64,000 bases of DNA from a virus. Lineage: Duplodnaviria > Caudoviricetes. Location: positions 64,001-128,000 of the IMG/VR virus record IMGVR_UViG_3300009540_000001, one strand, 5' to 3'. The translations under genes and the position numbers were made by a program. A model generated the notes under the pieces. That model searched no databases and was not told the origin of the DNA. It saw only the letters and a program-made list of their open reading frames with translations. This document shows, in pieces, positions 1-28,110 of this stretch (positions are counted from its first letter, which is position 1; each line of letters starts with the position of its first letter).

Positions 1-943
1 ACGAGGGCGAGAGGAACATCAGCTGCGCGAACAGCTTGCGCGGATCGTCGCCAGCTGTGCCTGTGAGGCAGATGCGCCGCGAGGCCTTGGCGGAGAGCTC
101 GAGCGCCGACTTCGTCTGCTCCGATTCGAAGTTGCCGAGGTAGTGGCTCTCGTCCGCGACGATCGTGTCGTACGGGAGCTGATAGAGCGGATGGGACGCG
201 GCGTGCCGGAACTCCTCGATGGCCGCCTCCGTCAGCAGCGGCAGCTTGTAACGCTCCCGCTGCGTGGGGCTCAGCTCGAGCTCGAGCGTCGCCTTCTGCG
301 CCCGCTCTCGCTCCATGCGAAGGCGGGTGTAGGAGGCGAGAACGATGTCGGCGTCCTGGGCCAGGGCCTCGGCCTCGCGCGACCCGTCCCACACGACGAC
401 GCTCCATTCCCCTCGCGTGCACCGTTCCGTTTCCTTCTGCCACGCAGCGAGGACGACGGGTGGCGCCAGGACCAGGGCCCGGCGAAACTGCCCCCGCAGG
501 CGCAGCAGGCGAAAGGCGTCGATCGCGGTGCGGGTCTTGCCGGTGCCGGGTTCCCACAACAGGAAGGTGCGCCACCAGTTCACGATCCGGGAGATGCCGA
601 GGCGCTGGTGGCTGTACGGCGTAAAGCCTGGGGTGAAGAAGCCTGCCGGGATGTCGAGGGGGACGTCTGCCTTGGCCTGGTACGCCGCCTCGGCAGCTTG
701 CCAGTCGAGCTCGGCCTCGCGTAGAAGCTTCAGGTGCTCCAAGGCGCTCTCGTCCCACGCTGCGTTCGGGGCGAGCTTGCGAATGTCCTCGAAGGTCCAG
801 CGACCGAACGGAAAGTACGCGGGAAATTGCCAGGCCCCGTCGGCGTAGACGCCGCCCCATGCGCGGGAGACCCCGTGCTCTTTGGGTGCGGGTAGCCGAA
901 AGACAGGCGTAGACTTGCGAAGTAGGTCGCCGCTTACGTGCAT
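1..943 (-). CDS. SNF2-family (SF2) helicase, 3' end runs off the window
   Basis: Manual translation from ATG 943 (AGGAGG upstream): MHVSGDLL...PYSHQRLG (Q motif), WEPGTGKT (Walker A), IVADESH (DExH), CLTGT (motif III). It is absent from the ORF track because there is no stop in the window. Confidence 0.85.
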   Translation of the reverse strand, partial: MHVSGDLLRKSTPVFRLPAPKEHGVSRAWGGVYADGAWQFPAYFPFGRWTFEDIRKLAPNAAWDESALEHLKLLREAELDWQAAEAAYQAKADVPLDIPAGFFTPGFTPYSHQRLGISRIVNWWRTFLLWEPGTGKTRTAIDAFRLLRLRGQFRRALVLAPPVVLAAWQKETERCTRGEWSVVVWDGSREAEALAQDADIVLASYTRLRMERERAQKATLELELSPTQRERYKLPLLTEAAIEEFRHAASHPLYQLPYDTIVADESHYLGNFESEQTKSALELSAKASRRICLTGTAGDDPRKLFAQLMFLSPS

Positions 944-964
944 GGCGCCCTCCTGGGAGTAGAG

Positions 965-2689
965 ATGTTCGACGGTGACTTCAATCCGATGGGAGGACAG
1001 AACGGTCCGGGTGCCTCGCACCCGAACCCGATGTTCGACTACACGACCTCCTTTGTCCCGAGGAAGCTCAAGGACCTCTTCAAGTGGGCAGAGTACCTTG
1101 GGTTCAACTCCGCGCACATTTACGCGGTAGTTCGGAAGTTCGGGGAGTACCCGATCACCCGGTTCATCTACGAGTCGACCTCTGAAGAGGAGAAGGCTCG
1201 GCACAAGAAGCTCTTCGAGGAGGACGTCCACCTCAAGGGGTTCATGACGCTCGCGTCCTACGACGTGTGGCTCTACGGCAACTCCTTCGTCAGCGTGTAC
1301 GAGCCGATCAAGCGGGACCTCATGTGCCCCGAGGAGGGGTGCAAGAGCCGTGAGGACATCACGGCGGCGGTCTACGAGTTCAACCTCGAGCGCCTCGAGT
1401 TCAAGCACGACTGCCGCGAGTGCCAGCGCAAGGGCGTGATCTCCATCGTCAAGGACGTGAAGATCAAAGAGGCCGAGCGCATCCGGCTCATCCGGTGGGA
1501 CCCGAAGCTGATCGACATCGAGCACAACCCGATCACGGGCGAGTCGGTCTACTACTACCAGATCCCGCGCGACATCGTCTCGAAGGTGAGGGGCGGCAAC
1601 AAGACGCTCATCAACCACATGCCGATGGAGATCTTGCGCGCCATGCAGGCGAACAAGACCTTCAAGTTCGGGCCCAACGCGCTGTTCCACCTGAAGATGC
1701 CGGGGCCGGCCGGCGTGCAGTCGCAGTGGGGCTACCCGCCGATCACCTCGGCGATCAAGAACTTCCTGTTCGCCTCCATCCTGCGCAAGGCCAACGAGGC
1801 CATCGCGCTCGAGCACATCACGCCGTTCCGCGTGATCCACCCGCTCTCGGCGAGCGCGCAGGGCGACCCCATCTCGACGATCAACCTCGGCCAGTGGAAG
1901 GACGAGATGGTCCGCAACCTGCGGGAGTTCCGCAAGGACCCGCTGCGCATCCAGTTCTCCCCTGTGCCCATCGGCGTGCAGAACATCGGCGGCGAGGGCC
2001 GCGCGCTCCTGACGCTCGGGGAGCTCCAGGAAGCGGAGAAGGCGATCGTCCTCTCCCTCGGTGTGCCGATGGAGTTCCTCACCGGCGGCCTCGGACAGAC
2101 GCGCGGCGAGATCACGCTGCGGATGATCGAGAACCAGCTACAGACCCACATCGAGAACCTGAACGCCCTGGTGCGCTGGATCGAGCGCAAGGTCGCCGCG
2201 TACATGTCGTGGGACACCATCTCGATGCGGCTCGCCGACTTCAAGATGATCGACGACATGGAGTCGAAGCAACTCAAGCTCCAGCTGTGGCAGTCGCAGC
2301 TCATCTCGAACTCCACGGTCGCGGAGCTCGTAGACGTCGACCTCGATCACGAGCGCAAGCAGCGCCGCGAGGACACGCTCGCCGATACCCGCGCGCAGCA
2401 GAAGACGCAGATCGAGGTGCAGAAGCTCCAGCAGTCGATCTCGCAGCAGGCGCAGCAGCAGGCGATTCAGTCGCAGGGCGGCATGGCCTACGACCAGCAG
2501 CAGATCCGAGCGCAGGCGGACATCAAGGTGCAGGAGCTCGCGCAGCTCGACCCGGGCTCGCGCCGCAGCCGTATGGACGCGCTCAAGGGCGAGGACTACG
2601 TGATGTACTGCGTCGTGCGTGACATGCTCGAGCAAGTGCAGCAAGATCAGATGCAGGCGATGAAGGCTCAAGGGCAGCAGGCGGCGTGA
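965..2689 (+). CDS. Probable portal protein with a Cys-rich insertion
   Basis: Portal-like segments (LIRWDPKLIDI, LFHLK..QWGYPPI, EKAIVLSLGVPMEFL), size about 575 aa, Q-rich coiled-coil C-terminus, first gene of the morphogenesis block. ATG 965 is preferred over GTG 938, which overlaps the helicase start. Confidence 0.65.
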   Translation: MFDGDFNPMGGQNGPGASHPNPMFDYTTSFVPRKLKDLFKWAEYLGFNSAHIYAVVRKFGEYPITRFIYESTSEEEKARHKKLFEEDVHLKGFMTLASYDVWLYGNSFVSVYEPIKRDLMCPEEGCKSREDITAAVYEFNLERLEFKHDCRECQRKGVISIVKDVKIKEAERIRLIRWDPKLIDIEHNPITGESVYYYQIPRDIVSKVRGGNKTLINHMPMEILRAMQANKTFKFGPNALFHLKMPGPAGVQSQWGYPPITSAIKNFLFASILRKANEAIALEHITPFRVIHPLSASAQGDPISTINLGQWKDEMVRNLREFRKDPLRIQFSPVPIGVQNIGGEGRALLTLGELQEAEKAIVLSLGVPMEFLTGGLGQTRGEITLRMIENQLQTHIENLNALVRWIERKVAAYMSWDTISMRLADFKMIDDMESKQLKLQLWQSQLISNSTVAELVDVDLDHERKQRREDTLADTRAQQKTQIEVQKLQQSISQQAQQQAIQSQGGMAYDQQQIRAQADIKVQELAQLDPGSRRSRMDALKGEDYVMYCVVRDMLEQVQQDQMQAMKAQGQQAA

Positions 2690-3185: not shown

Positions 3186-3236
3186 CTACGAGCGCAGAAC
3201 GTGGATGACGAACTTGTAGATCGCGCGAATCAGCAA
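3186..3236 (-). CDS. Putative 16-aa hydrophobic peptide MLIRAIYKFVIHVLRS
   Basis: Very strong Shine-Dalgarno (GAAAGGAGGTG) 6 nt before TTG; TAG stop; downstream hairpin. Confidence 0.45.
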   Translation of the reverse strand: MLIRAIYKFVIHVLRS

Positions 3237-3280
3237 GAGACACACCTCCTTTCCGTACGACCTTCTACCTGTATTTCCGC

Positions 3281-3287
3281 TAGACTT
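3281..3287 (+). promoter_or_regulatory. TAGACTT -10-like box upstream of the RNAP gene
   Basis: The same heptamer occurs at 910 and 11780, upstream of other structural-block genes. Confidence 0.55.
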
Positions 3288-3296
3288 CGCACACCC

Positions 3297-6200
3297 ATGA
3301 GCGAAGTCACTCCCGTCCTCACGGACGCCGCCACGCTGCGCGCCAAGATTCACGAGAAGACGCAAGCCGCGCTGCGGTCGGTGTTCCCGCTCGACTTGAA
3401 GGGCCGCACGCTCGAGCTCCAGGACGTCAAGGTCCACGCGCAGGACTACAGCCCGAGCCAGCAGCGCCGCGCGCTGCTCACCGGCTCGAGTCTGTATGAG
3501 CCGGTGAAGGGCACCCTCGTGCTGAAAGACGGCGCGGGCAAGGTCGTCGACACGGCGAAGAACTTCACGCTCGCGCACGTGCCGTACCTGACGGAGCGGC
3601 ACACGCTCATCTCGGACGGCAACGAGTACCAGATGGCGAACCAGCTTCGCCGCAAGCCGGGCGTGTACACACAGCGCTCGGACAACGGCGAGCTCAAGAA
3701 CGTCTTCAACCTCGGTCGCGGGTCGAACTTCGACCTCGGGATGAACGAGGGCAAGGGGACGTTCCACATGACCTACGGGACGACCAACCTGCCGCTTTAC
3801 GCGGTGCTGCGTGGGATGGGCGCGTCGCACGAGGAGATCGCCGGGAAGTGGGGCGCGGGCGTCGCGAAGGCCAACGAAGCCGCGCACGGGCACCAGATCG
3901 AGAGCACGATCGCGAAGCTGTACGGCAAGCTCGAGCACCCGGCGCTGATCAAGCCCGGGGCGACGCACGAGGAGAAGCTGACGGCGGTCCACAAGCGCTA
4001 CGCGTTGTCGACGCTCGACCCGGAGGTCACGAAGCAGACGCTAGGCCACGGGCACAGCTCGGTCACGCCGACGGCGCTCCTCGACGCCTCGGCGAAGATG
4101 CTCCGCGTTCACAAGGGCGAAGACGTCGTCGACGACACCGACTCGCTCGCCTTCAAGACGTTCCACTCGATGGACGACTTCTTGGCGGAGCGCATTCGGC
4201 TGACGGCGCGCGCATGGGCCCCGAAGGCCCGCATGGCGCTCAACGGCAAGACGGAGATCCGCGAGGCCCTGAAGCCCGGGCCGTTCTCCTCGGCGATTCG
4301 GAAGTTCGTCACGACGTCGAACCTCGCGGCGGTTCCCCCGGGCATCAACCCCATGGAGCTGATCGACCACGCGGTGAAGGTGACGTCGCTCGGCGAAGGC
4401 GGCATCCCCTCGGACCGCGCGATCCCCTTCGACGCGCGCATGATCCACAACACGCACTTCGGGGCGCTCGATCCCGTGCGCACGCCCGAGAGCAATCACT
4501 CGGGCGTGGACATCCGCGCAACGATCGCCGCCCACCGCGACGACGCCGGCAACCTCTACACCGTCTTGCGCAACGTGAAGTCCAACAAGATGGAGTTCGT
4601 CCGCGCGGGCGATCAGCGCAAGTACGTCGTCGCCTTCCCCCACCAGCAGCTGAAGGGCGACGTCGACGCCTTCCGCGACGGCAAGCTCGAGAAGGTCGAC
4701 GCCTCTACGGTCACCCACCAGCTCGACCACATCAAGCACGCGTACTCGCCCGCGACGTCCATGGTGCCGTTCCTGCACTCGATGCAGGGCAACCGCGCCA
4801 TCATGGCCTCGAAGTTCGGGACGCAGGCGCTGCCGCTGCTCGAGCGCGAGGTACCGCTCGTGCAAGTGCGCTCGCACTTGGACAGCGGGGAGTCGTTCGA
4901 ACAGGTCTACGGGCACATGATCAACCCGACGGCGCCTGTGGCGGGGACGGTCAAGAAGGTCGACGGGGACTATGTGTGGATCGAACCGCACCGCGTAAAG
5001 AAGGCGGAGGATCGCCCTGTCCTCTATCAGAAGCGTGTCGGCCCGCACGCCTTCAACATCGAGATCGAGAAGGAGTTCCACGTTCGCGGGAACAAGTTCC
5101 CCTCGTCTTCGGACTACGGGCACCTCCCTGGGTACGTCGGGCCTGACGGCGACAGCCTCGACTTCTTTGTCGGGGATCGCCACGACGGGGTCCTTGCCGT
5201 CTACGACAAGCAAAAGAACTTCGACGGGAAGGGCTGGAAGACGACAGACAAGAAGTTCGTCGTCGGGATGAACCCCACCGAGTACGCGGCGTGGCAGAAG
5301 CACCCGGCGATGACGGCACACCCGCAAATCCGCTTCGCCAACGAGCGTCGCTTCAAAGACTGGGACGACCTGAAGTCGCACATCGACACCCACTACAAGC
5401 GTCCGGAAGGGCACGAGAAGGAAGCCGCCGAGAACCTGGTCAAGGTCCCCTACCAGACCCAGTTCCCCTTCCCCTCGAAGACCTCGCTTCACCACGACGT
5501 CATCGTCAAGCCAGGCGACAAGGTCGAGGCCGGGCAGCAGCTCGGCGAGTCGAACTACACCCGCAAGGGCACGCTCGCGCTCGGGAAGAACCTGCTCGTC
5601 GGCTACATGGCGTACCACGGCGTGAACTCCAACGACGCCATGGTGATCTCGGAGGGCGCGTCGAAGAAGCTCACCAGCGAGCACATGTACCGGGAGATTT
5701 ACCCGGTAAACGCGCGCATCGAGCTCAACACCGCGAAGCACAAGCTGTACTACGGCTCGAAGTACCAGCCGCAGCAGTACGCGCACCTCGACGCGGACGG
5801 CGTGGTCAAGAAGGGTTCGCGGGTCAACCCGAAGGACATCCTCGTCGCCGGATTGACGAAGCAGCAGGTGTCAGGGTCCGACGCCCTCGTGGGCCGCATC
5901 TCCAAGGCGCTGACGAAGCCGTACAAGGAGGTCGTGCTCGAGTGGACGCACGGCGGTCCCGGCGTCGTGGAGGACGTCGTCCGCACCGCGTCGCAGATCA
6001 CGGTGCTGATCAGCACGCAGGAGCGCATGCAGATCGGCGACAAGCTCGCCGGTCGCCACGCGAACAAGGGCGTCGTCTCGCGCATCGTCCCCGACCACGA
6101 GATGATCCGAGACGAGCAGGGCCGCCCCCTCGACGTGCTCATCACGAGCGCTGGCGTCATCAGCCGCGTGAACCCGAGTCAGATCCTCGAGACGTGCGCC

Positions 6201-8183
6201 GGCAAGGTCGCGGAGAAGACCGGCAAGCCGGTGATCTTCGACAACGCCGCCGGCGTCAACGCCGTGAAGTGGGTACGCGGCCTGATGAAGGAGCACGGCG
6301 TAAAGGACAAGGAGGTCGTCTTCGACCCGCTCACGAAGCGCCACATCACGGGCTCGGATGGGAAGGGAGTACTTGTAGGTAGACAGTATATCTACAAGCT
6401 CTTCAAGTCGACGGACACGAACTTCGCCGGGCACGGCGTGGGCCCGTACGACCTGAACGAACAGCCGCTGAAGACCGGCGGCGACGACAGCGCCAAGGGC
6501 CTCGGCAAGATGGAGTTCGACGCGTTGCTCGCGCACAACGCTCGCAACTTCCTCAACGAGGCTGCGACCGTGCGCGGCACCAAGAACGAGGAGTTCTGGA
6601 AGGCCGTGCAGCTGGGCCTGCCCATGCCCGCGCCGAAACCGTCGTTCGCGTTCAATAAGTTCGTCGGAATGCTCGAGGGTGCGGGCGTGCGCATCGACAA
6701 GCGCGGGAGCAAGTTCCACATCCTGCCGCTGACCGACAAGGACGTCACGAAGCGCTCGGCAGGGGCGATCGAGAACAACAAGACGCTCCAGGCGAAGGAC
6801 CTGAAGCCGGAGAAGGGCGGGCTGTTCGATCCCTCGCGCACGGGAGGGCCGCAAGGGACGCTGTACGCACACATCGACTTGCACGAGCCGATTCCCTCGC
6901 CCGTGTTCAAGGAGCCGGTGCGCCGCTTGCTCGGCATGACGGAGAAGCAGTTCGACAACGCGCTCGGCGAGCACGGCGGCGGGTGGTTTAAGACTCAGCT
7001 TGACGCCATCAGCCCCGACGCGAAGCTGAAAGACCTGCGCGCACGGATGACGAAGGCCAACGGCCCCGTCTTGAACGACCTCGTCAAGCAGGTGAAGTAC
7101 CTCGAGGCGCTGAAGACGCACAAGCTCAGCCCGAGCGAGGCGTACATCATCTCGAAGGTACCGGTGATCCCGCCGGTTTTCCGTCCCATTCTCCCAGGAG
7201 TCGCAGACCCCTCGCAGCTGATGGTCGCCGACGCCAACAAGCTGTACGCGCAGCTGATGGACGCAAACCACACGCTGAAGAACACTGCCTTGCCCAGTGA
7301 CTTGGGGAAGCATCGCAACGAAGTCTTCTCGACGGTCGAGGAGCTCTACGGCACGACGTTGCCGCGCGACCCGAAGCTTCAGCAGCAAAAGGTGAAGGGG
7401 TTCCTCTCCACCATCGCGGGCGTCGGCACGCCGAAGGGCGGGTTCTTCCAGCGCAAGCTGATGCGCAAGAACATGGACATCAGCGGGCGCGGCACAGCGG
7501 TGCCGGACTCGAACCTCGGCATGGACGAAGTCGGCATCCCTGAGAAGATGCTCTGGGGCATGCTCGACAAGCTCGTCGTCGCTCGACTCATGCGGAAGGG
7601 CTACCCCGCGCTCGACGCGCGCGAAATGGTCAAGAAGCAGACGGCGGCGGCGCGCGAGGCGCTCATGGAAGAGACGCGCGAGCGCCCCATGCTCATCAAC
7701 CGGGCCCCGACGCTGCACCGCTGGTCGATCGTGGCGGCGTACGCGAAGCCCGTGCAGGGCAAGACGATCCGCGTGAGCTCCTTCACGGAGAAGGGCCTCA
7801 ACCTCGACTACGACGGCGACACCTTGCAGGTGCACGCCCCGCTCACCCCGGGCTCGATCGAGGACGCCAAGAAGATGACGCTCTCGAACATGATCCTGAG
7901 CGATCAGCAGCGGAACAAGCTCCTCGCCTTTCCGCAGCACGAGGCGATCATCGGCTTCACCCTCGCAGCCAAGGGCGGCACAGGCACCGGCCCCGTCAAG
8001 AAATTCGCGACGCGCGACGAAGCCATGGCCGCCTGGCGCCGTGGAGAACTCCAGCTGAACGACGCGATCCAGGTGGCGAACGTGAAGCACGCGTACGAGG
8101 AAGAAGACGACGATTCCATCTCTCCCGACGTCGACGTATCCTTCTACCCGGCCGAACACGTCACCGGCGTGGGCCTGGAGTAA
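3297..8183 (+). CDS. rpoB: Phage multisubunit RNA polymerase: beta fused to the N-terminal part of beta', with an inorganic-pyrophosphatase-like insert
   Basis: Beta motifs: TSLGEGG, HFGALDPVRTPE, PFLHSMQGNRAIM, GTLALGKNLLV, GDKLAGRHANKGVVS, GLGKMEFDAL. Beta' motifs follow in the same frame: KPEKGGLF, VPVIPPVFRP, DISGRG, LINRAPTLHR, catalytic NLDYDGD (7800-7820). ATG 3297 lies downstream of a TAGACTT box. Confidence 0.95.
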   Translation: MSEVTPVLTDAATLRAKIHEKTQAALRSVFPLDLKGRTLELQDVKVHAQDYSPSQQRRALLTGSSLYEPVKGTLVLKDGAGKVVDTAKNFTLAHVPYLTERHTLISDGNEYQMANQLRRKPGVYTQRSDNGELKNVFNLGRGSNFDLGMNEGKGTFHMTYGTTNLPLYAVLRGMGASHEEIAGKWGAGVAKANEAAHGHQIESTIAKLYGKLEHPALIKPGATHEEKLTAVHKRYALSTLDPEVTKQTLGHGHSSVTPTALLDASAKMLRVHKGEDVVDDTDSLAFKTFHSMDDFLAERIRLTARAWAPKARMALNGKTEIREALKPGPFSSAIRKFVTTSNLAAVPPGINPMELIDHAVKVTSLGEGGIPSDRAIPFDARMIHNTHFGALDPVRTPESNHSGVDIRATIAAHRDDAGNLYTVLRNVKSNKMEFVRAGDQRKYVVAFPHQQLKGDVDAFRDGKLEKVDASTVTHQLDHIKHAYSPATSMVPFLHSMQGNRAIMASKFGTQALPLLEREVPLVQVRSHLDSGESFEQVYGHMINPTAPVAGTVKKVDGDYVWIEPHRVKKAEDRPVLYQKRVGPHAFNIEIEKEFHVRGNKFPSSSDYGHLPGYVGPDGDSLDFFVGDRHDGVLAVYDKQKNFDGKGWKTTDKKFVVGMNPTEYAAWQKHPAMTAHPQIRFANERRFKDWDDLKSHIDTHYKRPEGHEKEAAENLVKVPYQTQFPFPSKTSLHHDVIVKPGDKVEAGQQLGESNYTRKGTLALGKNLLVGYMAYHGVNSNDAMVISEGASKKLTSEHMYREIYPVNARIELNTAKHKLYYGSKYQPQQYAHLDADGVVKKGSRVNPKDILVAGLTKQQVSGSDALVGRISKALTKPYKEVVLEWTHGGPGVVEDVVRTASQITVLISTQERMQIGDKLAGRHANKGVVSRIVPDHEMIRDEQGRPLDVLITSAGVISRVNPSQILETCAGKVAEKTGKPVIFDNAAGVNAVKWVRGLMKEHGVKDKEVVFDPLTKRHITGSDGKGVLVGRQYIYKLFKSTDTNFAGHGVGPYDLNEQPLKTGGDDSAKGLGKMEFDALLAHNARNFLNEAATVRGTKNEEFWKAVQLGLPMPAPKPSFAFNKFVGMLEGAGVRIDKRGSKFHILPLTDKDVTKRSAGAIENNKTLQAKDLKPEKGGLFDPSRTGGPQGTLYAHIDLHEPIPSPVFKEPVRRLLGMTEKQFDNALGEHGGGWFKTQLDAISPDAKLKDLRARMTKANGPVLNDLVKQVKYLEALKTHKLSPSEAYIISKVPVIPPVFRPILPGVADPSQLMVADANKLYAQLMDANHTLKNTALPSDLGKHRNEVFSTVEELYGTTLPRDPKLQQQKVKGFLSTIAGVGTPKGGFFQRKLMRKNMDISGRGTAVPDSNLGMDEVGIPEKMLWGMLDKLVVARLMRKGYPALDAREMVKKQTAAAREALMEETRERPMLINRAPTLHRWSIVAAYAKPVQGKTIRVSSFTEKGLNLDYDGDTLQVHAPLTPGSIEDAKKMTLSNMILSDQQRNKLLAFPQHEAIIGFTLAAKGGTGTGPVKKFATRDEAMAAWRRGELQLNDAIQVANVKHAYEEEDDDSISPDVDVSFYPAEHVTGVGLE
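4998..5426 (+). other. Inorganic pyrophosphatase-like domain inserted in RNAP beta
   Basis: DYGHLPGYVGPDGDSLDFFVG resembles the family I PPase YG-x-x-P...DGDxxD signature; the insert is bounded by KKA and KEA. Confidence 0.7.
5698..5710. promoter_or_regulatory. Perfect-armed copy of the dispersed palindrome TTTAC-NNN-GTAAA
   Basis: TTTACCCGGTAAA; perfect-armed copies also at 8278 and 60537, about 40 copies in all. Confidence 0.6.
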
Positions 8184-8189
8184 CCGCCC

Positions 8190-8567
8190 GTGCCGAAGCT
8201 GTCCGACACCGTGAAGGGCGTAACCCAACGACAAGCAGCGTCGCTGCGGGGTTGGTACCGTAAGCCCGCCCCCGGCTTTTACGGGGTAAAGGACGGCTTC
8301 GACGCCGCCGCCAAAGGAGCGCACGTGAAGGTCTCGTCCGACAAGATCGCCGAGGCCCGCATGCGCGGCTACCTGCGCGTCCTCCAGAAGTACGCCCTCC
8401 TCGAGAAGTTCGACGAGCCGATCGAGGCCCTCGCGAAGCGCTTCGCGCAGAGCAACTTCGGCTACGGCGAGGACCCGAAGCCGCAGGCGAAGGGGCGGTT
8501 CCAGGGCTACGCCGGGGACCCGATGATGAGCCCGCCGAGCCCGGGTGCGACGCAGAGGAGCGTTTGA
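8190..8567 (+). CDS. Hypothetical protein (probable virion protein, KIA/KYA motifs)
   Basis: Fills the gap between the RNAP genes; coupled to the next ORF. Confidence 0.65.
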   Translation: MPKLSDTVKGVTQRQAASLRGWYRKPAPGFYGVKDGFDAAAKGAHVKVSSDKIAEARMRGYLRVLQKYALLEKFDEPIEALAKRFAQSNFGYGEDPKPQAKGRFQGYAGDPMMSPPSPGATQRSV

Positions 8568-9232
8568 TGGGACCTGGAGCACAAGTCGCCCTGGCAATGG
8601 GCATTCCCGCCGCCGCCGCGTCGCTCGGGGCCCTCTACCTGATGACGCCGAAATACCTTCGGCGGCAGATCGGCGAAGAGTTCCGCGACCCGCGCCTCTA
8701 CTCGAACCTGCGCGGCGCCGTCTCGCTCGAAGACCGCGACGAACGCGTCCGTGCGCATCGACACCTCGGTAAGGGCGACGGAAGTGTGCTCGGGGCGATG
8801 GCGACGGGGTTCGGAAGGAAAGAGGCAGGCGTCAAGAAAGAAGCCATGATCAAAGTCGCATACTACAACTCCAAGGTCGCATCTCTCGGCGCCATCGCCG
8901 GCGCCGCTGGCCGAACGCTGATGCACAACCCTCGCGCTGCCGCGACCGTTGCAGGCGGTGCCGTCGGCGCGGGCGCTGGCGCCCTCGCAGCGGGGCCGGG
9001 GAACCGCCTCGCGGGAGCCGCAGGCGGCGCAGCGATCGGAGCAGGCGCGGGTAACCTCGCGACGCGCGGCGCTGCTGGGCGGGATGCCGTCGCAGGCGTA
9101 GGCCGTAGGTTGCGCGACGCCGCGCCCGCCAGGGCCATCCCCGCGCTCGGTAAGGCTGTGCCCAACGCGGTCGCTGCACCCGTCGCGGTTGCCGCACCCG
9201 CGTTCATGGGGCCGCCGGGCGCCGCACGCTGA
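8564..9232 (+). CDS. Glycine-zipper membrane-type protein with K-x-A motifs
   Basis: KEA, KEA, KVA, KVA followed by GGAVGAGAGALAAG and GAAGGAAIGAGAG. Confidence 0.7.
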   Translation: MMGPGAQVALAMGIPAAAASLGALYLMTPKYLRRQIGEEFRDPRLYSNLRGAVSLEDRDERVRAHRHLGKGDGSVLGAMATGFGRKEAGVKKEAMIKVAYYNSKVASLGAIAGAAGRTLMHNPRAAATVAGGAVGAGAGALAAGPGNRLAGAAGGAAIGAGAGNLATRGAAGRDAVAGVGRRLRDAAPARAIPALGKAVPNAVAAPVAVAAPAFMGPPGAAR

Positions 9233-9235
9233 CCC

Positions 9236-11035
9236 ATGCAAACCTCCGTCGGCCAGTTCCTGATTAACGACGTCCTCCCCGACGGCTACAAGGTCAACGG
9301 CCCCATCAACAACAAGGGGCTGCACGACCACGTCGTCGGCCTCGCCAAGAGCGACCCGGCGAAGTACGTCCAAACGATCATGGCGCTCAAGCGGCGTGGC
9401 GACGAGATCGCCACGCATGAGGGCATCACCGTGGGGCTCGACGACATCGAGCCGGACTACGAAGCCCGCGACGCGATCATGAAGCCCGCCATCCTGAAGA
9501 TGAAAGGGCTCAAGACCGACAAGGCGAAGGAGACCCACATCCTCGAGACGCAAGCGGCGATGACGGCGCAGACGAAGCTCCACAAGGGCTCGATGACGCA
9601 CATGGCGCTCTCCGGCGCGCGCGGCAACATCGCGCAGCTGATGAAGATCGTCTCGACCCCGCTCGCCACGGTGCATCCGAAGCACGGCGTGTCGCACACG
9701 CTGTTCGATCGCTCGTACGCCGAAGGGCTCACCCCCGCGCAGTACTGGCTCGCAGGGCCTGAGATCCGCGCGAACGAAGTCGCGGCGCGCATCTCCGTGT
9801 CGGAGCCCGGCGAGATGGCGAAGGTCCTCGTCGCGAACACCGTGTCGCAGATCGTGACGCAGTCGGACTGCGGGACGATGAACGGCGTAAAGATGGGGGT
9901 CGACGACTCCCACACGCTGGATCGGCACACGCAGGAGACGCACGGTCTGCACAGGAATACGCTCGTGACGCCGCAACTCCTTCAGAACTTGAAGGCGCGC
10001 GGAGTAGGGGACCTTCTAGTAAGGTCTCCGATGACCTGCATCGCCCCTCGCGGCGTCTGTCAGATGTGCCAAGGCCACAACGAGAAGGGCCACCTGCACC
10101 CGATCGGCATGACCGTCGGCGTGCGCGCCGCGCAGGCCATGGCCGAGCCGCTGACCCAGATGGCGCTCTCGAGCCGCCACGGCACGCTGAGCGTCAAGGG
10201 AACGACGCAAGCCCCCACGGGGCTGAAGGGCGTGCGCCAGCTCTTGGATGTGCCTGCGGCGTTCAAGGGCGAAGCGACGCTCGCCCCCGAAGCGGGTGTC
10301 GTGGCGAAGATCGAGGTTGCGCCGCAAGGCGGGCACTTCATCACCGTGGGCTCGAAGAAGACGTACGCTCGGCCGGACTTCGCGCTGCGCGTGCGTGTCG
10401 GCGACCACGTCGAGTTCGGCGACGTCATGACCGACGGCGTCCCGCACCCCGCGAAGGTCGTAGCCGCCAAGGGCCTCGGCGCAGGGCGCAAGTACTTCGT
10501 CGACGCGATGCACAACCTGTACAAGGACGAAGGCGTCAACCTCGACAAGCGCCACCTGGAGCTCTTGGCGAAGTCGGAGATCAATCACGTCAGGTTGCTC
10601 GAGGCGGACCCGCACCACCCGGAGTTCCTCAAGGGAGACGTCATCAACTACAACTCCTTCCGGGACGCATATCACAAGGACTCGGAGAAGGTCCGCCTCT
10701 CCGACGCCGTAGGGCACCGCCTCGGGCAAGAGGTTCTGCATCACACCGTGGGCACGGTTCTCACGCCGTCCGTCCTCAAGGAGCTCGACAAACACGGGGT
10801 CCGTGAGGTAGCGGTTACCAAGGCCATGCCTCGGCTCGAGTTCGTGATGAAGCCGTTCGCGATGAACCCGCTGCTCGAGCAGGACTGGATGGCGCGCCTC
10901 GCCCACCGGTACCTGAAGTCCACAGTGCAAGAAGCAGCCCACTTCGGCGAAGTCGCAGACGTCCACGGGACCCACCCCGTCCCGGCGTACGCTTACGGTG
11001 CGGAGCTCCATCACGGGCCCGGAGGAATCTTCTGA
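9236..11035 (+). CDS. rpoC: RNA polymerase beta' C-terminal subunit
   Basis: SGARGNIAQL, SYAEGLTPAQY (before the bridge helix), SDCGT, VRSPMTC..GVCQMCQG (Zn site), GVRAAQAMAEPLTQMALSSRH (trigger loop), LDKRHLELL. Confidence 0.93.
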   Translation: MQTSVGQFLINDVLPDGYKVNGPINNKGLHDHVVGLAKSDPAKYVQTIMALKRRGDEIATHEGITVGLDDIEPDYEARDAIMKPAILKMKGLKTDKAKETHILETQAAMTAQTKLHKGSMTHMALSGARGNIAQLMKIVSTPLATVHPKHGVSHTLFDRSYAEGLTPAQYWLAGPEIRANEVAARISVSEPGEMAKVLVANTVSQIVTQSDCGTMNGVKMGVDDSHTLDRHTQETHGLHRNTLVTPQLLQNLKARGVGDLLVRSPMTCIAPRGVCQMCQGHNEKGHLHPIGMTVGVRAAQAMAEPLTQMALSSRHGTLSVKGTTQAPTGLKGVRQLLDVPAAFKGEATLAPEAGVVAKIEVAPQGGHFITVGSKKTYARPDFALRVRVGDHVEFGDVMTDGVPHPAKVVAAKGLGAGRKYFVDAMHNLYKDEGVNLDKRHLELLAKSEINHVRLLEADPHHPEFLKGDVINYNSFRDAYHKDSEKVRLSDAVGHRLGQEVLHHTVGTVLTPSVLKELDKHGVREVAVTKAMPRLEFVMKPFAMNPLLEQDWMARLAHRYLKSTVQEAAHFGEVADVHGTHPVPAYAYGAELHHGPGGIF

Positions 11036-11806: not shown

Positions 11807-13747
11807 GTGCAGACCAATCTGTTCACTCGTAACTACCTCAAGGGCGTGTCCGACGGTCTGATCGACCAGGGCGCCCTGGCCCCGTGGGGCGACGACAAGA
11901 TCGCGACCGAGGTCTTCGACAAGATCGCCAGCGATCACAACCTGCCCGCGATCCTGTCGGAGCAGCTCCCGGACGACGTGAACATCTCGCTCGGCCGGCA
12001 CCTCCAGCACTGGTCGAAGGTCGCGCACGAGAAGAACCTCGGCGCAGGCCCGACGGCCGTCGTGCAGGCGAAGCACGCCTCGCTCGCGTCGCGCGAGCTG
12101 CGCGCGGCCTCGAGCGCCGCGTACTACATGGACAAGGCCGCCGAAGACGGCGCGCTGAACGGCGTGGGCGAGAACACCCCCGAAGCCGCCACGGCGAACA
12201 ACGCCATCGCGCGCCTCGACCAGGCGAACCGCTCGACGTTCATGTACCTCGTCGGCATGGGCAACACGGACATGCCCGAGGGCGGCGTCGTGGGCCGGCA
12301 GATGGCGCACCCGATGGCGCCGAAGGGCCCGGCGATCAACAACTCGCTGACGGGGCTCGACAAGCAGGCCAGCGAGTCGGACTTCACCAAGGCCGCCAAC
12401 TTCATCGAGGCGCTCATGAAGCGCGGGGCGCAGCCCACGGTGAAGATGGTGCTCGCCGCCGCCAGCATGGCGGAAGGTGAGTACGACGGTCTCGAGCTGA
12501 TGACCGACATCGTTCGGCACGTGAAGACGGCCGAGGAGCTCGACGGCGCGCTCGACGACGTCAACAGCGCGACGGACGAGGCCTCGGCGCCTCCGAACCC
12601 GCAGCTCGTCGAGCTGATCGAGAAGGCGCTCGCGCACTACTTCGAGACGCACCCCGACATGGCCGGCGCGCACGGCGAGCCGGACGGCGACGAAGCTCCG
12701 GCGGACCCGGCGGGCGAAGGCGACGCGCCCCCGGCGCCGATGGAGGGAAAGACGGCGTCCACCATCAGCGGTCCGCGCAACCTGAAGGAAGTGCCCAAGG
12801 CCCTCGCCACGGGCGCGAAGCACATCGCCGGAAAGGCCAAAGACGAGCTCTCTCACGTTCCCAACTTCTTCAAGACGTTGAAGAACCGCAAGGATCTGAC
12901 CTCGGAGTTCGGCAAGGACATGGTCGATCGCACGCTCAAGGAGCACGGCAAGGGCGCGCTCCGCGTGGGTGGGGCGGCGGCGGGCGTTGGCGCGCTCGGC
13001 GCGGGCGCCGCGTATGCGGCGACGCGGGACAAGAAGAAGGAAGCGGCGTGGTACGACCCCGAGGTCCTCGGGACGGAAGCCCTCCACCGTGAAGGCCTCG
13101 CGCCGCTGGAGGTGGGCCCGGCCCTCGAGCACGCCGACGCGATGAAGCGCTACCTGGGCAAGGCCCCGCTGGGTGAGCGCGCGCTCGAAGGCGCCAAAGA
13201 CGTCGGGCACGCAGGCCTCGACAAGGTGAAGGCCCTCGGCGCGCTCATGAACCGCAACCGCCTCGCCACCGCCGGCATCGGCGCGGGCGTCCTCGGCCTC
13301 GGCGCGGGCGGCGCCTACCTTGCCTCGCGCGGCGGCTCGAAGGAAGCCCAGCTCCTCGCCGAGCTCTCCAAGGCCGCCACGGACGGCGCGCTGAACGACC
13401 CGGGGACCAACACCCCCGCCGAGGCCGCCGCCGTCAACGCAAACGCCCGGCTCGACATGCAGAACCGCAGGCCGGAAGAGTACCTGAACGGCGTGGGCGA
13501 CACCGCCATGCCGAACAAGGGCCATCTCGGCGAGAGCATGCCGGCGCCCAAGGGCCCGGCGAAGACCAACCCGCAGACGACGCCCGTGAAGGAAGCGTCG
13601 TTCGAAGCCTCGATCCGCTCGGCCGGCGAGTACTGGGGCCCCAAGCTCCCGGCTTCGATGCCGGTGAGCGAGAAGCGCGCGCACGTGATCGCGCTCGCGG
13701 GGATGCCCGAAGCGTACCGCGCGAACTACGTGCGGAACCTCGGCTAA
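11807..13747 (+). CDS. Large modular protein with K-x-A sites, an internal repeat and two Gly-rich hydrophobic segments
   Basis: AAGGAG RBS and TAGACTT box upstream; duplicated KAAxDGALN...PKGPA unit. Confidence 0.8.
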   Translation: MQTNLFTRNYLKGVSDGLIDQGALAPWGDDKIATEVFDKIASDHNLPAILSEQLPDDVNISLGRHLQHWSKVAHEKNLGAGPTAVVQAKHASLASRELRAASSAAYYMDKAAEDGALNGVGENTPEAATANNAIARLDQANRSTFMYLVGMGNTDMPEGGVVGRQMAHPMAPKGPAINNSLTGLDKQASESDFTKAANFIEALMKRGAQPTVKMVLAAASMAEGEYDGLELMTDIVRHVKTAEELDGALDDVNSATDEASAPPNPQLVELIEKALAHYFETHPDMAGAHGEPDGDEAPADPAGEGDAPPAPMEGKTASTISGPRNLKEVPKALATGAKHIAGKAKDELSHVPNFFKTLKNRKDLTSEFGKDMVDRTLKEHGKGALRVGGAAAGVGALGAGAAYAATRDKKKEAAWYDPEVLGTEALHREGLAPLEVGPALEHADAMKRYLGKAPLGERALEGAKDVGHAGLDKVKALGALMNRNRLATAGIGAGVLGLGAGGAYLASRGGSKEAQLLAELSKAATDGALNDPGTNTPAEAAAVNANARLDMQNRRPEEYLNGVGDTAMPNKGHLGESMPAPKGPAKTNPQTTPVKEASFEASIRSAGEYWGPKLPASMPVSEKRAHVIALAGMPEAYRANYVRNLG

Positions 13748-26812: not shown

Positions 26813-27082
26813 ATGCGCTACGCACTGAGCCCGGCGACCCTCCGGGACTACGACGAGGCTCTCTCCCTGCGTAAACACGCAGCGGAGGGCGCCTCGTCGG
26901 CCGTTGTGAGTCCTACGGCTCCGTCCCCGCCCACTCCCACGACGTACAAGGCGCAGAAGCCCCCTCCGCAGCCCGGGGACTACAAGGCGCCCTTCTTGGA
27001 CAACTCGGGCCTCGCGGCCCAAGCGTCGTCCGCGACGCTCTTCCAGGAGGGCAAGGAGAAGTCCATGCCGGTGACGCGGTGA
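26813..27082 (+). CDS. Small Pro-rich hypothetical protein
   Basis: TATGCT box 6 nt before ATG. Confidence 0.6.
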   Translation: MRYALSPATLRDYDEALSLRKHAAEGASSAVVSPTAPSPPTPTTYKAQKPPPQPGDYKAPFLDNSGLAAQASSATLFQEGKEKSMPVTR

Positions 27083-28110
27083 GCGTGTTTACGCAAGGGA
27101 CCGGCACTGCGTACCCGAGTCAGCGCTCGAGCGCAGCCTCACGCAAAGAGCAGACGGCGCTGGATGCGGGCACCGCGTTCAACACCATCGACACGCTGCG
27201 CGCGATCAACCCGGATGCGGACTCGGGGCCGCCTTACGCGGTAAAGGGGGCGGCCCTGCGCACGAAAGTCGCGGTTAGCCCGACCTTCGTCGAGAGGCGC
27301 GTCGCAGCGGCGCGAGCAACGCCAGCCCGTCTTCAGCAGTTTGCGACGAAGATGCGAGGGCGCGCCGAGAACGCGTACGAAAACTCGCGCAGCGCATTCG
27401 GGGCTGCCAACGATTACATGGTCCAGGGCCGCCATAACCCTGAATCCATCCTTCCCGGGCACCAAGAACAAGAAAACTTCTTCGCAGGCCACGCTTGGCG
27501 TGAACGCGAGCTCGGGCATAAGTTCCAAGCAGCGCACGACACCGCGAACGTCCGGCTAGGCCTGCCGGTGGCACCGTTCGACATTGCCGCGCATAACGCC
27601 GCGAGCGACACCCGAGGCAGGTTGGCGCCCGAATTCCGCACTCTCGTGGGCTCGAAGGTCGCCGGCCACCCCCACGACCGCATCGAAGAGCGCACGCCGC
27701 TGCACAAGGGCAACATCGAACCCTTGCAACGCGCCGTGGACTTCCTCGGTCTTTCCCCTGGCTCCTATCACCTCCCTCTACGCGGTAAAGACGGTCAGGT
27801 CCTCGGCTACGCTCAGTTCAAAGGCGTGCCGAACCGCAAGGGGCCCGTGCTCGCGACGGTGCTCGCGCCGCACATGACGCCGGGCGGCGTCAATCTCGAG
27901 ACGTTCACGAAGAAGGCGGAGCTCGCGACGAGCGGCACCCCGCGACAGTCGGGCCTGTTCGACACCGACGACCGCGCGCCGCTCCCTCCCGAAGCGCTCG
28001 GCTGGAACGGAACGCATCAGACGGTGGGACGGCAGGAGTCCACGGGGTACGCGATGCGCCGCGCCTTCGAAGACGTGAACCACGCGGTGCCCGAAGGGGC
28101 CATGGAATGA
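27079..28110 (+). CDS. Modular protein with K-x-A-bounded segments, one resembling a small RNase-toxin fold
   Basis: TKVA, SKVA and KKA boundaries; HPHDRIEER...VLATVL. Confidence 0.65.
   Translation: MSVFTQGTGTAYPSQRSSAASRKEQTALDAGTAFNTIDTLRAINPDADSGPPYAVKGAALRTKVAVSPTFVERRVAAARATPARLQQFATKMRGRAENAYENSRSAFGAANDYMVQGRHNPESILPGHQEQENFFAGHAWRERELGHKFQAAHDTANVRLGLPVAPFDIAAHNAASDTRGRLAPEFRTLVGSKVAGHPHDRIEERTPLHKGNIEPLQRAVDFLGLSPGSYHLPLRGKDGQVLGYAQFKGVPNRKGPVLATVLAPHMTPGGVNLETFTKKAELATSGTPRQSGLFDTDDRAPLPPEALGWNGTHQTVGRQESTGYAMRRAFEDVNHAVPEGAME

What the first reader, a model, noticed from the sequence alone, without database searches (positions are those of the whole stretch)
4998..5426. Inorganic-pyrophosphatase-like domain inserted inside RNA polymerase beta and bracketed by K-x-A sites
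Seen: about 143 aa interrupt the beta segment between TAPVAGTVKKVDGDYVWIEP and VKVPYQTQFP...VKPGDKVEAGQQL, which in bacterial RpoB is a short surface loop. The insert contains DYGHLPGYVGPDGDSLDFFVG and is flanked by VKKA and EKEAA. Known: DGDxxD is the metal-binding loop of family I pyrophosphatases, PPi is the inhibitory by-product of RNA synthesis, and PPase-like domains occur in phage polyvalent proteins. Inference: either this RNAP carries its own PPi-removing enzyme, or the domain is a passenger cut out by the prohead protease, which would also split beta after translation. I do not know of a described RNAP with such an insert.
Basis: partly seen in the sequence, partly recalled or inferred. 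Interest (0 to 1): 0.9.

Follow-up and report, generated by a model that had tools for sequence, protein, structure and literature searches.

The report
Pyrophosphatase cargo inside phage RNA polymerase
A 172-kb uncultured phage carries a complete small pyrophosphatase enzyme inside a surface loop of its probably virion-packaged RNA polymerase, and in related phages the same loop holds other enzymes, several enzymes or nothing, each piece bounded by a short Lys-x-Ala motif that looks like a protease cut site.

Summary
Window 4998-5426 encodes 143 aa inserted in a beta-hairpin loop of a fused RNAP beta + beta'-N-half gene (3297-8183). This gene follows the portal gene in a complete 172-kb phage genome.

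The insert is a family-I-type pyrophosphatase of the phage 'InPase' subfamily (Pfam PF18823). Support: Pfam E=2e-4 (below the family cut-off), unbiased homologues that pass that cut-off, profile hits to solved PPases, an AF2 model at pLDDT 89, and only PPases among the top structural matches listed (Z about 8). The metal-binding and catalytic residues are almost invariant in 56 RNAP-embedded copies.

It is not a stable RpoB insertion. Among 118 metagenomic homologues, RNAP backbones 99.1-99.9% identical carry nothing, InPase, GNAT, a P-loop domain, unknown domains or arrays at this loop. Junctions carry E-K-x-A-[A/E] (53/56 on each InPase flank). The motif also persists in empty loops, precedes a C-terminal acidic tail, and brackets a module shared with a separate head-region ORF.

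Best reading: an exchangeable enzyme-cargo slot in a virion RNAP, probably cut out by the head protease. Cleavage is inferred, not shown. A polymerase-dedicated PPi remover is less likely.

This scan reached the same reading on two other genomes (e1-5352023, e1-5750362). I found no paper describing it.

The parts
3297..8183 (+). Gene for the fused RNAP beta + N-terminal half of beta' (1628 aa from the ATG at 3297; the open frame reaches back to the GTG at 3201)
   Evidence: Pfam Rpb2_3, Rpb2_6, Rpb1_1, Rpb1_2 and the NLDYDGD motif. P0003 in the protein database is 100% identical. 34-35% identical to Arash gp206 and the D69 homologue, with the same position after the portal gene.
4971..4988 (+). 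Outgoing hairpin strand YVWIEP, the last RNAP-body residues before the slot
   Evidence: Conserved in all homologues. Predicted strand E51-56 in model m2bb14850da12.
4995..5009 (+). N-terminal junction motif V-K-K-A-E (P0002 residues 599-603)
   Evidence: K-x-A lies within -12..+6 of the domain start in 53/56 embedded InPase copies. Consensus E-K-[T/K]-A-[A/E]-[D/E]. This segment has pLDDT <50, i.e. a flexible linker.
5007..5399 (+). InPase (family-I-type pyrophosphatase, OB fold) domain
   Evidence: PF18823 E=2e-4, 21.7 bits, below the cut-off of 26.8. phmmer against 1.8 billion representatives finds InPase proteins that pass the cut-off. The profile hits a phage portal with an InPase-like C-terminus (9b41_L, 1.3e-5) and then solved PPases. 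AF2 pLDDT 89.4. Foldseek: all matches listed are PPases, probability 0.94-1.00. VIA-align Z 8.6, rmsd 3.7, 120 residues aligned.
5145..5162 (+). Metal-binding loop D-G-D-S-L-D (insert residues D50, D52, D55)
   Evidence: Aligns with E. coli PPase D65-G-D67-P-V-D70. D50 and D55 are 56/56, and D52 is 48 D + 7 E, among RNAP-embedded copies.
5415..5429 (+). C-terminal junction motif E-K-E-A-A (P0002 residues 739-743)
   Evidence: K-x-A lies within -12..+30 of the domain end in 53/56 copies. It falls in the second pLDDT <50 linker, model residues 197-203.
5436..5456 (+). Returning hairpin strand LVKVPYQ, where the RNAP body resumes
   Evidence: Conserved in all homologues. Predicted strand E207-210. 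The sandwich-barrel hybrid region and Rpb2_6 follow.
8085..8180 (+). K-H-A followed by a 29-residue acidic C-terminal tail (...SFYPAEHVTG...)
   Evidence: Many homologues end the RNAP body with E-K-x-A-[E/S/A] followed by an acidic tail carrying a conserved [LF]S[YF][FYW]P[PA]E motif. Others stop just before it. Arash and D69 lack it.
9236..11035 (+). Separate gene for the C-terminal half of beta'
   Evidence: phrog_25354 (same family as the beta' part of the fusion) and RNAP-annotated phrog_3015/2962. PF04998 sits on the syntenic gene in L007.
938..2689 (+). Putative portal gene immediately upstream (by synteny only)
   Evidence: Same order as Arash gp204 (portal) - small ORF - gp206, and as D69. 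No family hit of its own.
27652..27918 (+). Module inside head-region ORF 27079-28110, homologous to a cargo module that sits in the RNAP slot of homologue P0113; bracketed here by KVAG and KKAE
   Evidence: blastp: 59.6% identity over 89 aa, E=6e-29. K-x-A is on both flanks in both host proteins.

Best explanation
The 143-aa insert is a catalytically competent-looking InPase domain. InPase is the phage branch of family I inorganic pyrophosphatases. It occupies an exchangeable 'cargo slot' at the tip of a beta-hairpin in the beta subunit of a virion-packaged multisubunit RNAP.

Proposed mechanism:
1. The cargo is translated as part of the beta/beta'-N polypeptide and enters the prohead with the polymerase.
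2. The head-maturation protease cuts the two flexible E-K-x-A-[A/E] linkers, probably after the Ala. This frees the enzyme and leaves beta in two chains that stay assembled.
3. Enzyme and polymerase are ejected into the host with the DNA.
4. The free enzyme then hydrolyses PPi, or a pyrophosphate-containing nucleotide or signal, during early infection.

Status of each step:
- Shown here: the fold and family of the insert, conservation of its active site, the hypervariability of the slot, and the conservation and portability of the motif.
- Inferred: virion packaging (from synteny and Arash proteomics), cleavage, the protease responsible, and the substrate.

My sub-confidences: InPase domain 0.95; exchangeable cargo slot rather than a fixed RNAP module 0.85; virion RNAP 0.75; proteolytic release at K-x-A 0.5-0.55.
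For: Domain identity
- PF18823 E=2e-4.
- 32 phmmer hits among 1.8 billion representatives; all ten scanned match only InPase-type families, seven of them above the gathering score.
- The profile hits portal 9b41_L and solved family I PPases. hhalign to E. coli Ppa gives E=4e-5 over the Y55/D65/D67/D70 region.
- AF2 pLDDT 89.4. Foldseek and VIA-align list only PPases among their top matches, Z up to 8.6.

Active site kept in 56 embedded copies
- D39 54/56, Y40 55/56, D50 56/56, D52 55/56 as D or E, D55 56/56, D84 56/56 as D or E, K86 56/56, E22 56/56 as E or D.

Slot variability
- Inter-anchor length ranges from 21 to 546 aa.
- Contents seen: InPase x1 or x2, P-loop AAA_18, GNAT (PF00583, 23 bits > cut-off 20.7), a 'GHSRG' domain, unknown domains, and Gly-zipper-like segments.
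- Backbone pairs with different contents: 99.5% (none vs InPase), 99.7%, 99.3%, 99.8% (none vs GNAT), 99.9% (none vs P-loop). The window's nearest backbone (93.3%) carries a different domain.
- Slot InPases fall in at least 3-4 separate places of an InPase tree, which suggests repeated capture.

Motif
- Present on 53/56 flanks each side, between the modules of the arrays inspected, and as 1-2 copies in empty loops.
- Present at the boundary of the C-terminal acidic tail.
- Present on both sides of a module shared between P0113's slot and window ORF 27079-28110.
- Both motifs fall in pLDDT <50 linkers, the only such segments flanking the domain.
- K-x-A is depleted in the RNAP body, 7/134 K.
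- K-x-A is concentrated in three ORFs of this genome, two of them in the head-gene region of this window: 9/11, 12/19 and 15/42 K, p = 2e-7 to 5e-5 against an Ala background of 0.119.

Packaging and precedent
- The gene follows the portal as in Arash, where gp206 is the most abundant protein in virion mass spectrometry (3516 spectra, PMC10585845).
- The vRNAP beta of 201phi2-1 is trimmed by its prohead protease, and vRNAPs must pass a ~30 A tail tube (PMC5694885).
- InPase domains are known from virion-packaged polyvalent proteins and portal fusions (PMC5512222).
Against: - No direct evidence of cleavage. There is no proteomics for this clade. Arash, the only cultured relative with virion mass spectrometry, lacks both the motif and the insert.
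- No recognised prohead protease family was found in the genome (PF03420, PF04586). The candidate protease ORF 20827-23805 is supported only by my reading of motifs.
- K-x-A is not enriched genome-wide (11.8% of K, equal to the Ala frequency).
- The invariant K-x-A near the capsid protein's N-terminus sits in a generally conserved region and proves nothing.
- A conserved charged, Ala-rich linker could also be a structural joint.
- The Pfam score of this particular copy is below the gathering cut-off.
- The top-120 homologue list was ranked on a region that includes the insert, so the share of InPase-bearing RNAPs is inflated.
- InPase is the commonest cargo and was captured repeatedly. That could instead reflect a functional tie to transcription.
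Confidence: 0.55

Rival explanations
1. Uncleaved cargo. The InPase and the other slot domains stay covalently attached to beta as flexible appendages. They travel with the RNAP and act in the host while tethered. In this reading K-x-A is only a conserved linker, or a joint that tolerates cassette exchange.
For: Slot variability and portability fit cargo whether or not it is cut. The linkers are predicted flexible. No protease family was detected.
Against: A specific motif (E-K-x-A-[A/E]) rather than generic Gly/Ser/Pro linkers is kept at the junctions examined, in empty loops and before the C-terminal tail. Some arrays contain Gly-zipper, membrane-like segments that are hard to reconcile with a soluble working polymerase. 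K-x-A clusters in scaffold-like or internal head ORFs.
Confidence: 0.25
2. Polymerase-dedicated PPi remover. The domain stays on the RNAP surface and hydrolyses the PPi released at each nucleotide addition. This pulls transcription forward and suppresses pyrophosphorolysis.
For: The active site is conserved. InPase is the commonest slot content and entered the slot several times. PPi clearance for early transcription was proposed for InPase domains in general (PMC5512222).
Against: RNAPs 99.5-99.7% identical lack it altogether. Others replace it with GNAT, P-loop or unknown domains. The same InPase subtype, preceded by K-x-A, also occurs in non-RNAP proteins. I could not compute the distance from the loop to the secondary channel.
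Confidence: 0.12
3. An ordinary lineage-specific RpoB insertion with a structural role, catalytically inert.
For: Hairpins of sandwich-barrel hybrid regions in beta are known hot spots for lineage-specific inserts (established knowledge: Iyer, Koonin and Aravind 2004; Lane and Darst 2010; recalled, not tested here).
Against: Presence or absence differs between 99%-identical backbones, so it is not lineage-fixed. Catalytic residues are nearly invariant.
Confidence: 0.03
4. An intein or other selfish insertion.
For: Homologues of this RNAP carry real inteins elsewhere (PF14528, PF05204, PF14890).
Against: There is no Hint or LAGLIDADG signal in the insert. It is a complete PPase fold. GC3 is 0.86 against 0.93 for the rest of the gene, only a modest difference.
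Confidence: 0.01

Closest known systems
InPase domain (Pfam PF18823) of phage polyvalent proteins and portal fusions (Iyer, Burroughs, Anand, de Souza, Aravind 2017, PMC5512222)
   Same: Same fold and the same conserved acidic residues. Shorter than classical PPases in the first-hairpin region. Found in proteins thought to be packaged in virions and delivered to the host. A solved portal (9b41_L) carrying such a domain is the best PDB sequence hit.
   Different: Here the carrier is the beta subunit of a multisubunit RNAP, and the domain is inserted in a loop rather than strung at an end. The paper does not mention this architecture. This copy scores below the Pfam cut-off.
Family I soluble inorganic pyrophosphatase (E. 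coli Ppa, M. tuberculosis Rv3628; Pfam PF00719)
   Same: OB-fold core. Equivalents of Y55, D65, D67, D70, D102 and K104 are present.
   Different: No PF00719 hit. About 30 residues shorter. The DGDSLDF loop departs from the classical signature as I recall it. It is not a free oligomeric housekeeping enzyme.
Polyvalent proteins processed into units (same paper), and T4 / phiKZ-type ejected internal proteins trimmed by the prohead protease
   Same: Several unrelated effector domains sit in one virion-delivered polypeptide. Short motifs lie at module borders. There is precedent for a vRNAP subunit being cut by the head protease (201phi2-1 beta, TFE-275; PMC5694885).
   Different: The known cleavage motifs end in Glu (L/I-x-E, S/A/G-x-E). 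Here the candidate is K-x-A, closer to the herpesvirus assemblin V/L-x-A|S (recalled, not tested). No Zn-peptidase (MPTase) domain is present. The carrier is an essential enzyme.
Lineage-specific insertions of bacterial RNAP beta (e.g. E. coli SI1/SI2)
   Same: A domain inserted at a surface hairpin of beta without disrupting the conserved core.
   Different: Those inserts are stable within lineages and are non-enzymatic modules. This slot changes content between 99%-identical polymerases and holds enzymes.
Virion RNAP of Salmonella phage Arash (gp206/gp216) and Vibrio phages D69, D181 and D148
   Same: The same fused beta + beta'-N gene after the portal, and a separate beta'-C gene. The Arash proteins are abundant in virions.
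   Different: 34-35% identity. They have a plain hairpin with no insert, no K-x-A motif and no C-terminal acidic tail.

Membership tests
InPase (Pfam PF18823) | Scores above the Pfam gathering threshold (26.8 bits) | tested here: not met
   21.7 bits, E=2e-4 for the insert alone. Homologues found without reference to Pfam do pass: P0130 29.2, P0132 53.4, P0135 42.1 bits. Several RNAP homologues carry a precomputed PF18823 hit. Membership therefore rests on transitive and structural evidence.
InPase (Pfam PF18823) | OB-fold catalytic domain of type I pyrophosphatases | tested here: met
   AF2 pLDDT 89.4, pTM 0.84. All Foldseek matches listed are PPases, probability 0.94-1.00, E about 1.5e-3. 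VIA-align Z 8.6 / rmsd 3.7 / 120 aligned, and all 50 listed entries are PPases. Z about 8 alone is only middling by the tool's own note; the exclusivity of the hits and the sequence profile carry the case.
InPase (Pfam PF18823) | Conserved acidic residues that bind the two metals | tested here: met
   D50, D52, D55 and D84, plus E22, Y40 and K86, are present here and 55-56/56 conserved (counting D/E exchanges) in embedded copies.
InPase (Pfam PF18823) | Lacks the extra beta-hairpin between strands 1 and 2 that solved PPases have | tested here: inconclusive
   HMMER alignments to 4ecp and 2uxs need 5- and 7-residue gaps in the profile in that region. The domain is about 30 aa shorter than E. 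coli Ppa. I could not inspect the superposition.
Classical family I PPase (Pfam PF00719) | Match to the PF00719 model | tested here: not met
   No PF00719 hit at E<=1 for the insert or the whole protein. One RNAP homologue (P0009) and P0132 do show PF00719.
Polyvalent proteins (Iyer et al. 2017) | Two to 15 unrelated effector domains in one virion-delivered polypeptide | tested here: inconclusive
   This window's protein has one cargo domain on an RNAP carrier. Homologues carry 2-4 modules in the slot. Packaging is inferred from Arash.
Polyvalent proteins (Iyer et al. 2017) | An in-chain processing peptidase (MPTase) that releases the units | tested here: not met
   No peptidase domain of that kind in the protein; the only peptidase-family hit is a weak sub-threshold Peptidase_M23 match over the barrel-sandwich region.
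Lineage-specific RNAP beta insertion | Stable presence within a lineage of polymerases | tested here: not met
   Content differs between backbones 99.1-99.9% identical.
Substrate of a head-maturation protease | Cleavage at a recurring short motif in proteins that enter the prohead | not testable with these tools
   Only indirect evidence: conservation and portability of the motif, its position in flexible linkers, and K-x-A clustering in three ORFs.
Virion RNAP | Protein present in purified virions | not testable with these tools
   Homologue Arash gp206 has 3516 spectra in virion mass spectrometry (PMC10585845). Synteny with the portal is shared.

The most novel reading that the evidence does not exclude
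A widespread clade of uncultured ~170-190-kb phages uses an essential enzyme, its virion RNA polymerase, as a carrier polyprotein. A single hairpin loop of beta serves as a plug-in slot for exchangeable enzyme cassettes (InPase, GNAT, P-loop, hydrolase-like and unknown domains). A head protease with K-x-A specificity excises them, which also converts beta into two chains after assembly. The same K-x-A 'punctuation' delimits modules in other head proteins, so the phage would have a genome-wide protease-defined modular cargo code.
Probability: 0.45. Interest if true: 0.8.

Novelty: new variant of a known kind. Interest (0 to 1): 0.7.

Why it matters
If the reading holds, it shows a new way for phages to deliver host-takeover or anti-defence enzymes. 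They ride inside a loop of the ejected RNA polymerase, and the cargo can be swapped between near-identical phages.

It gives a natural, tolerated insertion site in a multisubunit RNAP. It suggests a candidate head-protease specificity (Ala at P1, Lys at P3) different from the Glu-type motifs known from T4 and phiKZ. It also supplies a ready catalogue of unknown cargo domains that are probably early-infection effectors.

It makes testable whether post-translational splitting of beta helps a large polymerase pass through the tail. The pyrophosphatase itself bears on the open question of what InPase domains do in virions: PPi clearance or destruction of nucleotide signals.

Tried and rejected
- Arash gp23, annotated 'pyrophosphatase' and detected in virions, looked like a possible free-standing counterpart. 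It has no Pfam hit and hhalign gives 0.04% probability against the InPase profile, so I dropped the lead.
- Known prohead protease families PF03420 and PF04586 in the phage's own genome: no match. The N-extein of ORF 20827-23805 against PDB sequences: no match. So the protease is not identified.
- PHROGs, Pfam and NCBIfam on the neighbouring ORFs gave almost nothing. Exceptions: beta'-C, an intein, a weak HK97-fold capsid hit for 25850-26770, and a weak glycine-zipper hit for 8564-9232.
- K-x-A conservation at the capsid protein N-terminus (K29 119/121, A31 121/121) is real. I rejected it as evidence because the whole N-terminal region is conserved.
- Genome-wide K-x-A enrichment: none (11.8% against an Ala frequency of 11.9%). 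Only specific ORFs are enriched.
- I asked whether the DNA motif ending in GTAAAG at the N junction creates the K-x-A pattern. The logo shows no information downstream of GTAAAG, so it does not.
- Two relatives with the gene apparently split inside the slot (L006: overlapping GTGA after the InPase; L007: a frameshift inside another cargo module). Both are single Logan contigs and could be assembly errors, so I count them only as weak hints that a chain break is tolerated.
- BLAST of all slot modules against all ORFs of this genome found one shared module only. The Gly-zipper ORF 8564-9232 is not detectably homologous to the Gly-rich slot segments.
- Literature searches for a described RNAP with a PPase insert found nothing relevant.
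Full report
**What is there.** The window is bases 64001-128000 of a 172,374-bp IMG/VR phage record with direct terminal repeats, estimated complete, at about 66% GC. Window 4998-5426 translates to 143 aa without stops. It sits inside a 1660-codon frame, 3201-8183. The database form of this protein starts at the ATG at 3297 and is 1628 aa (P0003).

The protein is RNAP beta fused to the N half of beta' (Pfam Rpb2_3, Rpb2_6, Rpb1_1, Rpb1_2; catalytic NLDYDGD). The C half of beta' is a separate gene at 9236-11035. The nearest cultured relatives, at 34-35% identity, are Salmonella phage Arash gp206 and its homologues in Vibrio phages D69, D181 and D148. In those phages the gene likewise follows the portal gene and a small ORF.

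**The insert is real.** Arash and D69 show a clean gap of about 138 columns between the strand ...YVWIEP and the strand LVKVPYQ.... I measured the distance between two conserved anchors in the 120 best of 672 metagenomic homologues. It is 21-52 aa in about 50 proteins, 142-185 aa in about 45, and up to 546 aa in the rest; here it is 161 aa. Counting back from the PDB alignment (query 261-387 on E. coli beta 763-889), the site is the hairpin tip near E. coli beta 737-747. That lies just before the sandwich-barrel hybrid part of Rpb2 domain 6.

**The insert is a pyrophosphatase of the InPase kind.**
- Pfam gives PF18823 at E=2e-4 but below the cut-off, 21.7 against 26.8 bits.
- A filter-free phmmer search of 1.8 billion representatives returned 32 hits. 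All ten I scanned match only InPase-type families, seven of them above the cut-off.
- A profile of these (A2) hits a solved phage portal with an InPase-like C-terminus (9b41_L, 1.3e-5). Next come mycobacterial family I PPases at about 1e-3, and most of the weaker hits are also PPases.
- hhalign to E. coli Ppa aligns the Y55/D65/D67/D70 stretch at E=4e-5.
- The AF2 model is confident, pLDDT 89.4 and pTM 0.84.
- Foldseek lists only PPases, probability 0.94-1.00. VIA-align gives Z 8.6-7.4, rmsd 2.7-3.9 and 107-124 residues aligned, and all 50 listed entries are PPases.
- In 56 RNAP-embedded copies the catalytic set is almost invariant: D39 54, Y40 55, D50 56, D52 48 D + 7 E, D55 56, D84 49 D + 7 E, K86 56, E22 51 E + 5 D.

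Enzymatic activity and substrate remain untested.

**It is not a fixed RNAP module but the content of a hypervariable slot.**
- An HMM of the domain finds it in 53 of the 120 proteins, sometimes twice.
- Other proteins hold a GNAT acetyltransferase (P0034; PF00583, 23 bits > cut-off 20.7). Others hold a P-loop AAA_18-like domain (precomputed PF13238), a small domain with a GHSRG motif, several unknown domains, Gly-rich zipper-like segments, or arrays of 2-4 of these.
- On a tree of the RNAP backbone with the slot removed (1437 columns, 118 sequences; P0062 dropped for gaps), contents change between nearest neighbours.
- Backbone identities for pairs with different contents are 99.5% (P0058 none / P0016 InPase), 99.7% (P0059 / P0006), 99.3% (P0055 other / P0004 InPase), 99.8% (P0037 none / P0034 GNAT), 99.9% (P0081 none / P0074 P-loop) and 99.1% (P0060 / P0020).
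- The window's closest backbone, P0015 at 93.3%, carries the GHSRG domain instead of InPase.
- The slot InPases fall in at least 3-4 separate places of an InPase tree that also contains non-RNAP proteins (midpoint-rooted FastTree, branch support not examined). This suggests repeated capture.

Caveat: the top-120 list was ranked on a region containing the insert, so the proportions are biased.

**The K-x-A brackets are a conserved, portable feature.**
- K-x-A lies at the N flank of 53/56 and at the C flank of 53/56 embedded InPase domains. The exceptions have K-x-S or K-x-G.
- It separates the modules in the arrays I inspected.
- Insert-less loops keep one or two copies, for example H-A-V-K-T-A-A-A-G-D... 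or ...E-K-K-A-E-D-E-K-T-A-A-K-D-D-G....
- The consensus over 295 slot instances is E(-1) K [T/K] A [A/E] [D/E].
- Within the slots 18.9% of lysines are K-x-A, against 7.2% in the rest of the same proteins. In this protein only 7 of 134 lysines are K-x-A. Two bracket the insert and one (K-H-A, residue 1629) precedes a 29-residue acidic tail.
- Many homologues likewise end the body with E-K-x-A followed by an acidic tail with a conserved ...S-[YF]-[FYW]-P-[PA]-E... motif. Others stop right there, and Arash and D69 lack it.
- One slot module of P0113 is 59.6% identical (E=6e-29) to residues 192-280 of a separate ORF of this phage (27079-28110, just after the capsid gene). It is bracketed by K-x-A in both hosts: KHAA/KAAA in the RNAP, KVAG/KKAE in the ORF.
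- In a second AF2 model spanning the hairpin and the insert, the stretches under pLDDT 50 on either side of the domain are V-K-K-A-E and G-H-E-K-E-A-A. These are the two motifs in the linkers between the RNAP strands and the domain.

**Is K-x-A a protease code?** The evidence is indirect.
- Genome-wide, 11.8% of lysines are K-x-A, which equals the Ala frequency.
- Three ORFs stand out after correction for 190 tests: window 23824-24372 (9 of 11 K, p=2e-7), genome 44775-45791 (12 of 19, p=2e-7) and window 11807-13747 (15 of 42, p=5.5e-5). ORF 8564-9232, between the two RNAP genes, has 4 of 8. The lead for this test came from earlier first-reader notes on this genome.
- The capsid protein (25850-26770; weak HK97-fold hit) has an invariant K29-x-A31. 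Its whole N-terminus is conserved, so I give this no weight.
- I could not identify the protease. ORF 20827-23805 contains an intein. By my own reading its exteins have HK97-protease-like motifs, which is an inference only.
- Precedents: Arash gp206 and gp216 are among the most abundant proteins in virion mass spectrometry (PMC10585845). The 201phi2-1 vRNAP beta is trimmed by its prohead protease, and vRNAPs must pass a ~30 A tail tube (PMC5694885). InPase domains were described in virion-delivered polyvalent proteins and portal fusions, with PPi clearance or attack on nucleotide signals proposed as roles (PMC5512222).

**Verdict on mechanism.** Best supported is an exchangeable enzyme-cargo slot in a virion RNAP, with InPase as this phage's cargo.
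- Cargo slot: about 0.85.
- Release by cleavage at the two K-x-A linkers, which would also split beta: about 0.5. This is plausible and not shown.
- Tethered, uncleaved cargo: 0.25.
- Polymerase-dedicated PPi remover: 0.12. It is weakened because near-identical polymerases lack the domain or carry unrelated enzymes.
- An inert lineage insert and an intein are effectively excluded.

**Comparison with what is known, and novelty.** The domain belongs with InPase (PF18823) on transitive, structural and active-site grounds, although this copy misses the Pfam cut-off. The logic resembles polyvalent proteins and T4/phiKZ-type processed ejection proteins. It differs in three ways: the carrier is an essential polymerase subunit, the insertion is in a loop, and the candidate site has Ala rather than Glu. 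I found no paper describing a PPase, or any exchangeable enzyme, inside RNAP beta.

The same scan reached the same reading on two other genomes (e1-5352023, e1-5750362). I saw those notes only after my own analysis, so they are not independent evidence.

I rate this a new variant of a known kind, with interest 0.7.

Noticed in passing
window 4988-4999, and genome-wide: A 12-bp DNA motif close to TACG[C/G]CGTAAAG is strongly over-represented. There are 115 GTAAAG in the 172-kb genome against about 31 expected, and 87-93% of them are preceded by A-C at -5/-4. The full palindrome TTTACNNNGTAAA occurs 3 times in the window against 0.01 expected. A near-consensus copy, CACCGCGTAAAG, encodes H-R-V-K exactly at the N junction of the insert, using the rare Val codon GTA. 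The function is unknown (promoter for the phage RNAP?). It does not generate the K-x-A pattern.
   Followed up: partly
window 20827-23805: A 992-aa ORF with an intein (Hint + LAGLIDADG, about residues 184-550). By my reading the exteins show HK97-type prohead-protease-like motifs (VSMG|C before the intein, FDISFVFRPA after it). A K-x-A-rich 182-aa ORF follows it. It is the candidate head protease but is not confirmed (searches were negative).
   Followed up: partly
window 23824-24372; window 11807-13747; genome 44775-45791 (19 kb upstream of the window): Three ORFs in which K-x-A dominates the lysine contexts: 9/11, 15/42 and 12/19, p = 2e-7 to 5e-5. The 646-aa ORF also has an internal duplication (...DGALN..G.NTPE..A.N..ARLD..NR...). 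They may be scaffold or internal head proteins.
   Followed up: partly
window 27079-28110 (module at 27652-27918): A head-region ORF just after the capsid gene contains a K-x-A-bracketed module that is 60% identical to a cargo module sitting in the RNAP slot of another phage (P0113).
   Followed up: yes
window 8085-8180: An acidic C-terminal tail of the RNAP fusion after K-H-A, carrying the conserved motif ...SFYPAEHVTG.... It is present in many homologues, and absent in some and in Arash/D69. It could be a capsid-targeting or removable peptide.
   Followed up: partly
RNAP homologues P0024, P0028-P0034, P0038-P0042 and others: Many homologues of the fused RNAP carry one or more inteins (PF14528, PF05204, PF14890) elsewhere in the protein, which raises their lengths to 2000-2680 aa.
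   Followed up: no
L006:6001-9077 and L007:3714-9129: In two metagenomic relatives the RNAP gene is called as two ORFs broken inside the slot. In L006 a GTGA stop/start overlap lies right after the InPase. In L007 there is a frameshift inside a neighbouring cargo module, with an ATG just before K-K-A-E. These may be real splits or assembly errors.
   Followed up: partly
window 8564-9232: A 222-aa Ala/Gly-rich ORF between the two RNAP genes, with a weak glycine-zipper 2TM hit (PF05433, E=0.0098) and 4 of 8 lysines as K-x-A. Gly-zipper-like segments also occur as slot modules in P0055, P0011 and P0025, but without detectable homology to this ORF.
   Followed up: partly
window 25850-26770: Probable major capsid protein (weak HK97-fold hit, NF042927, E=1.6e-4). 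It has more than 900 metagenomic homologues, and K29-x-A31 is invariant among the 121 sequences aligned.
   Followed up: partly
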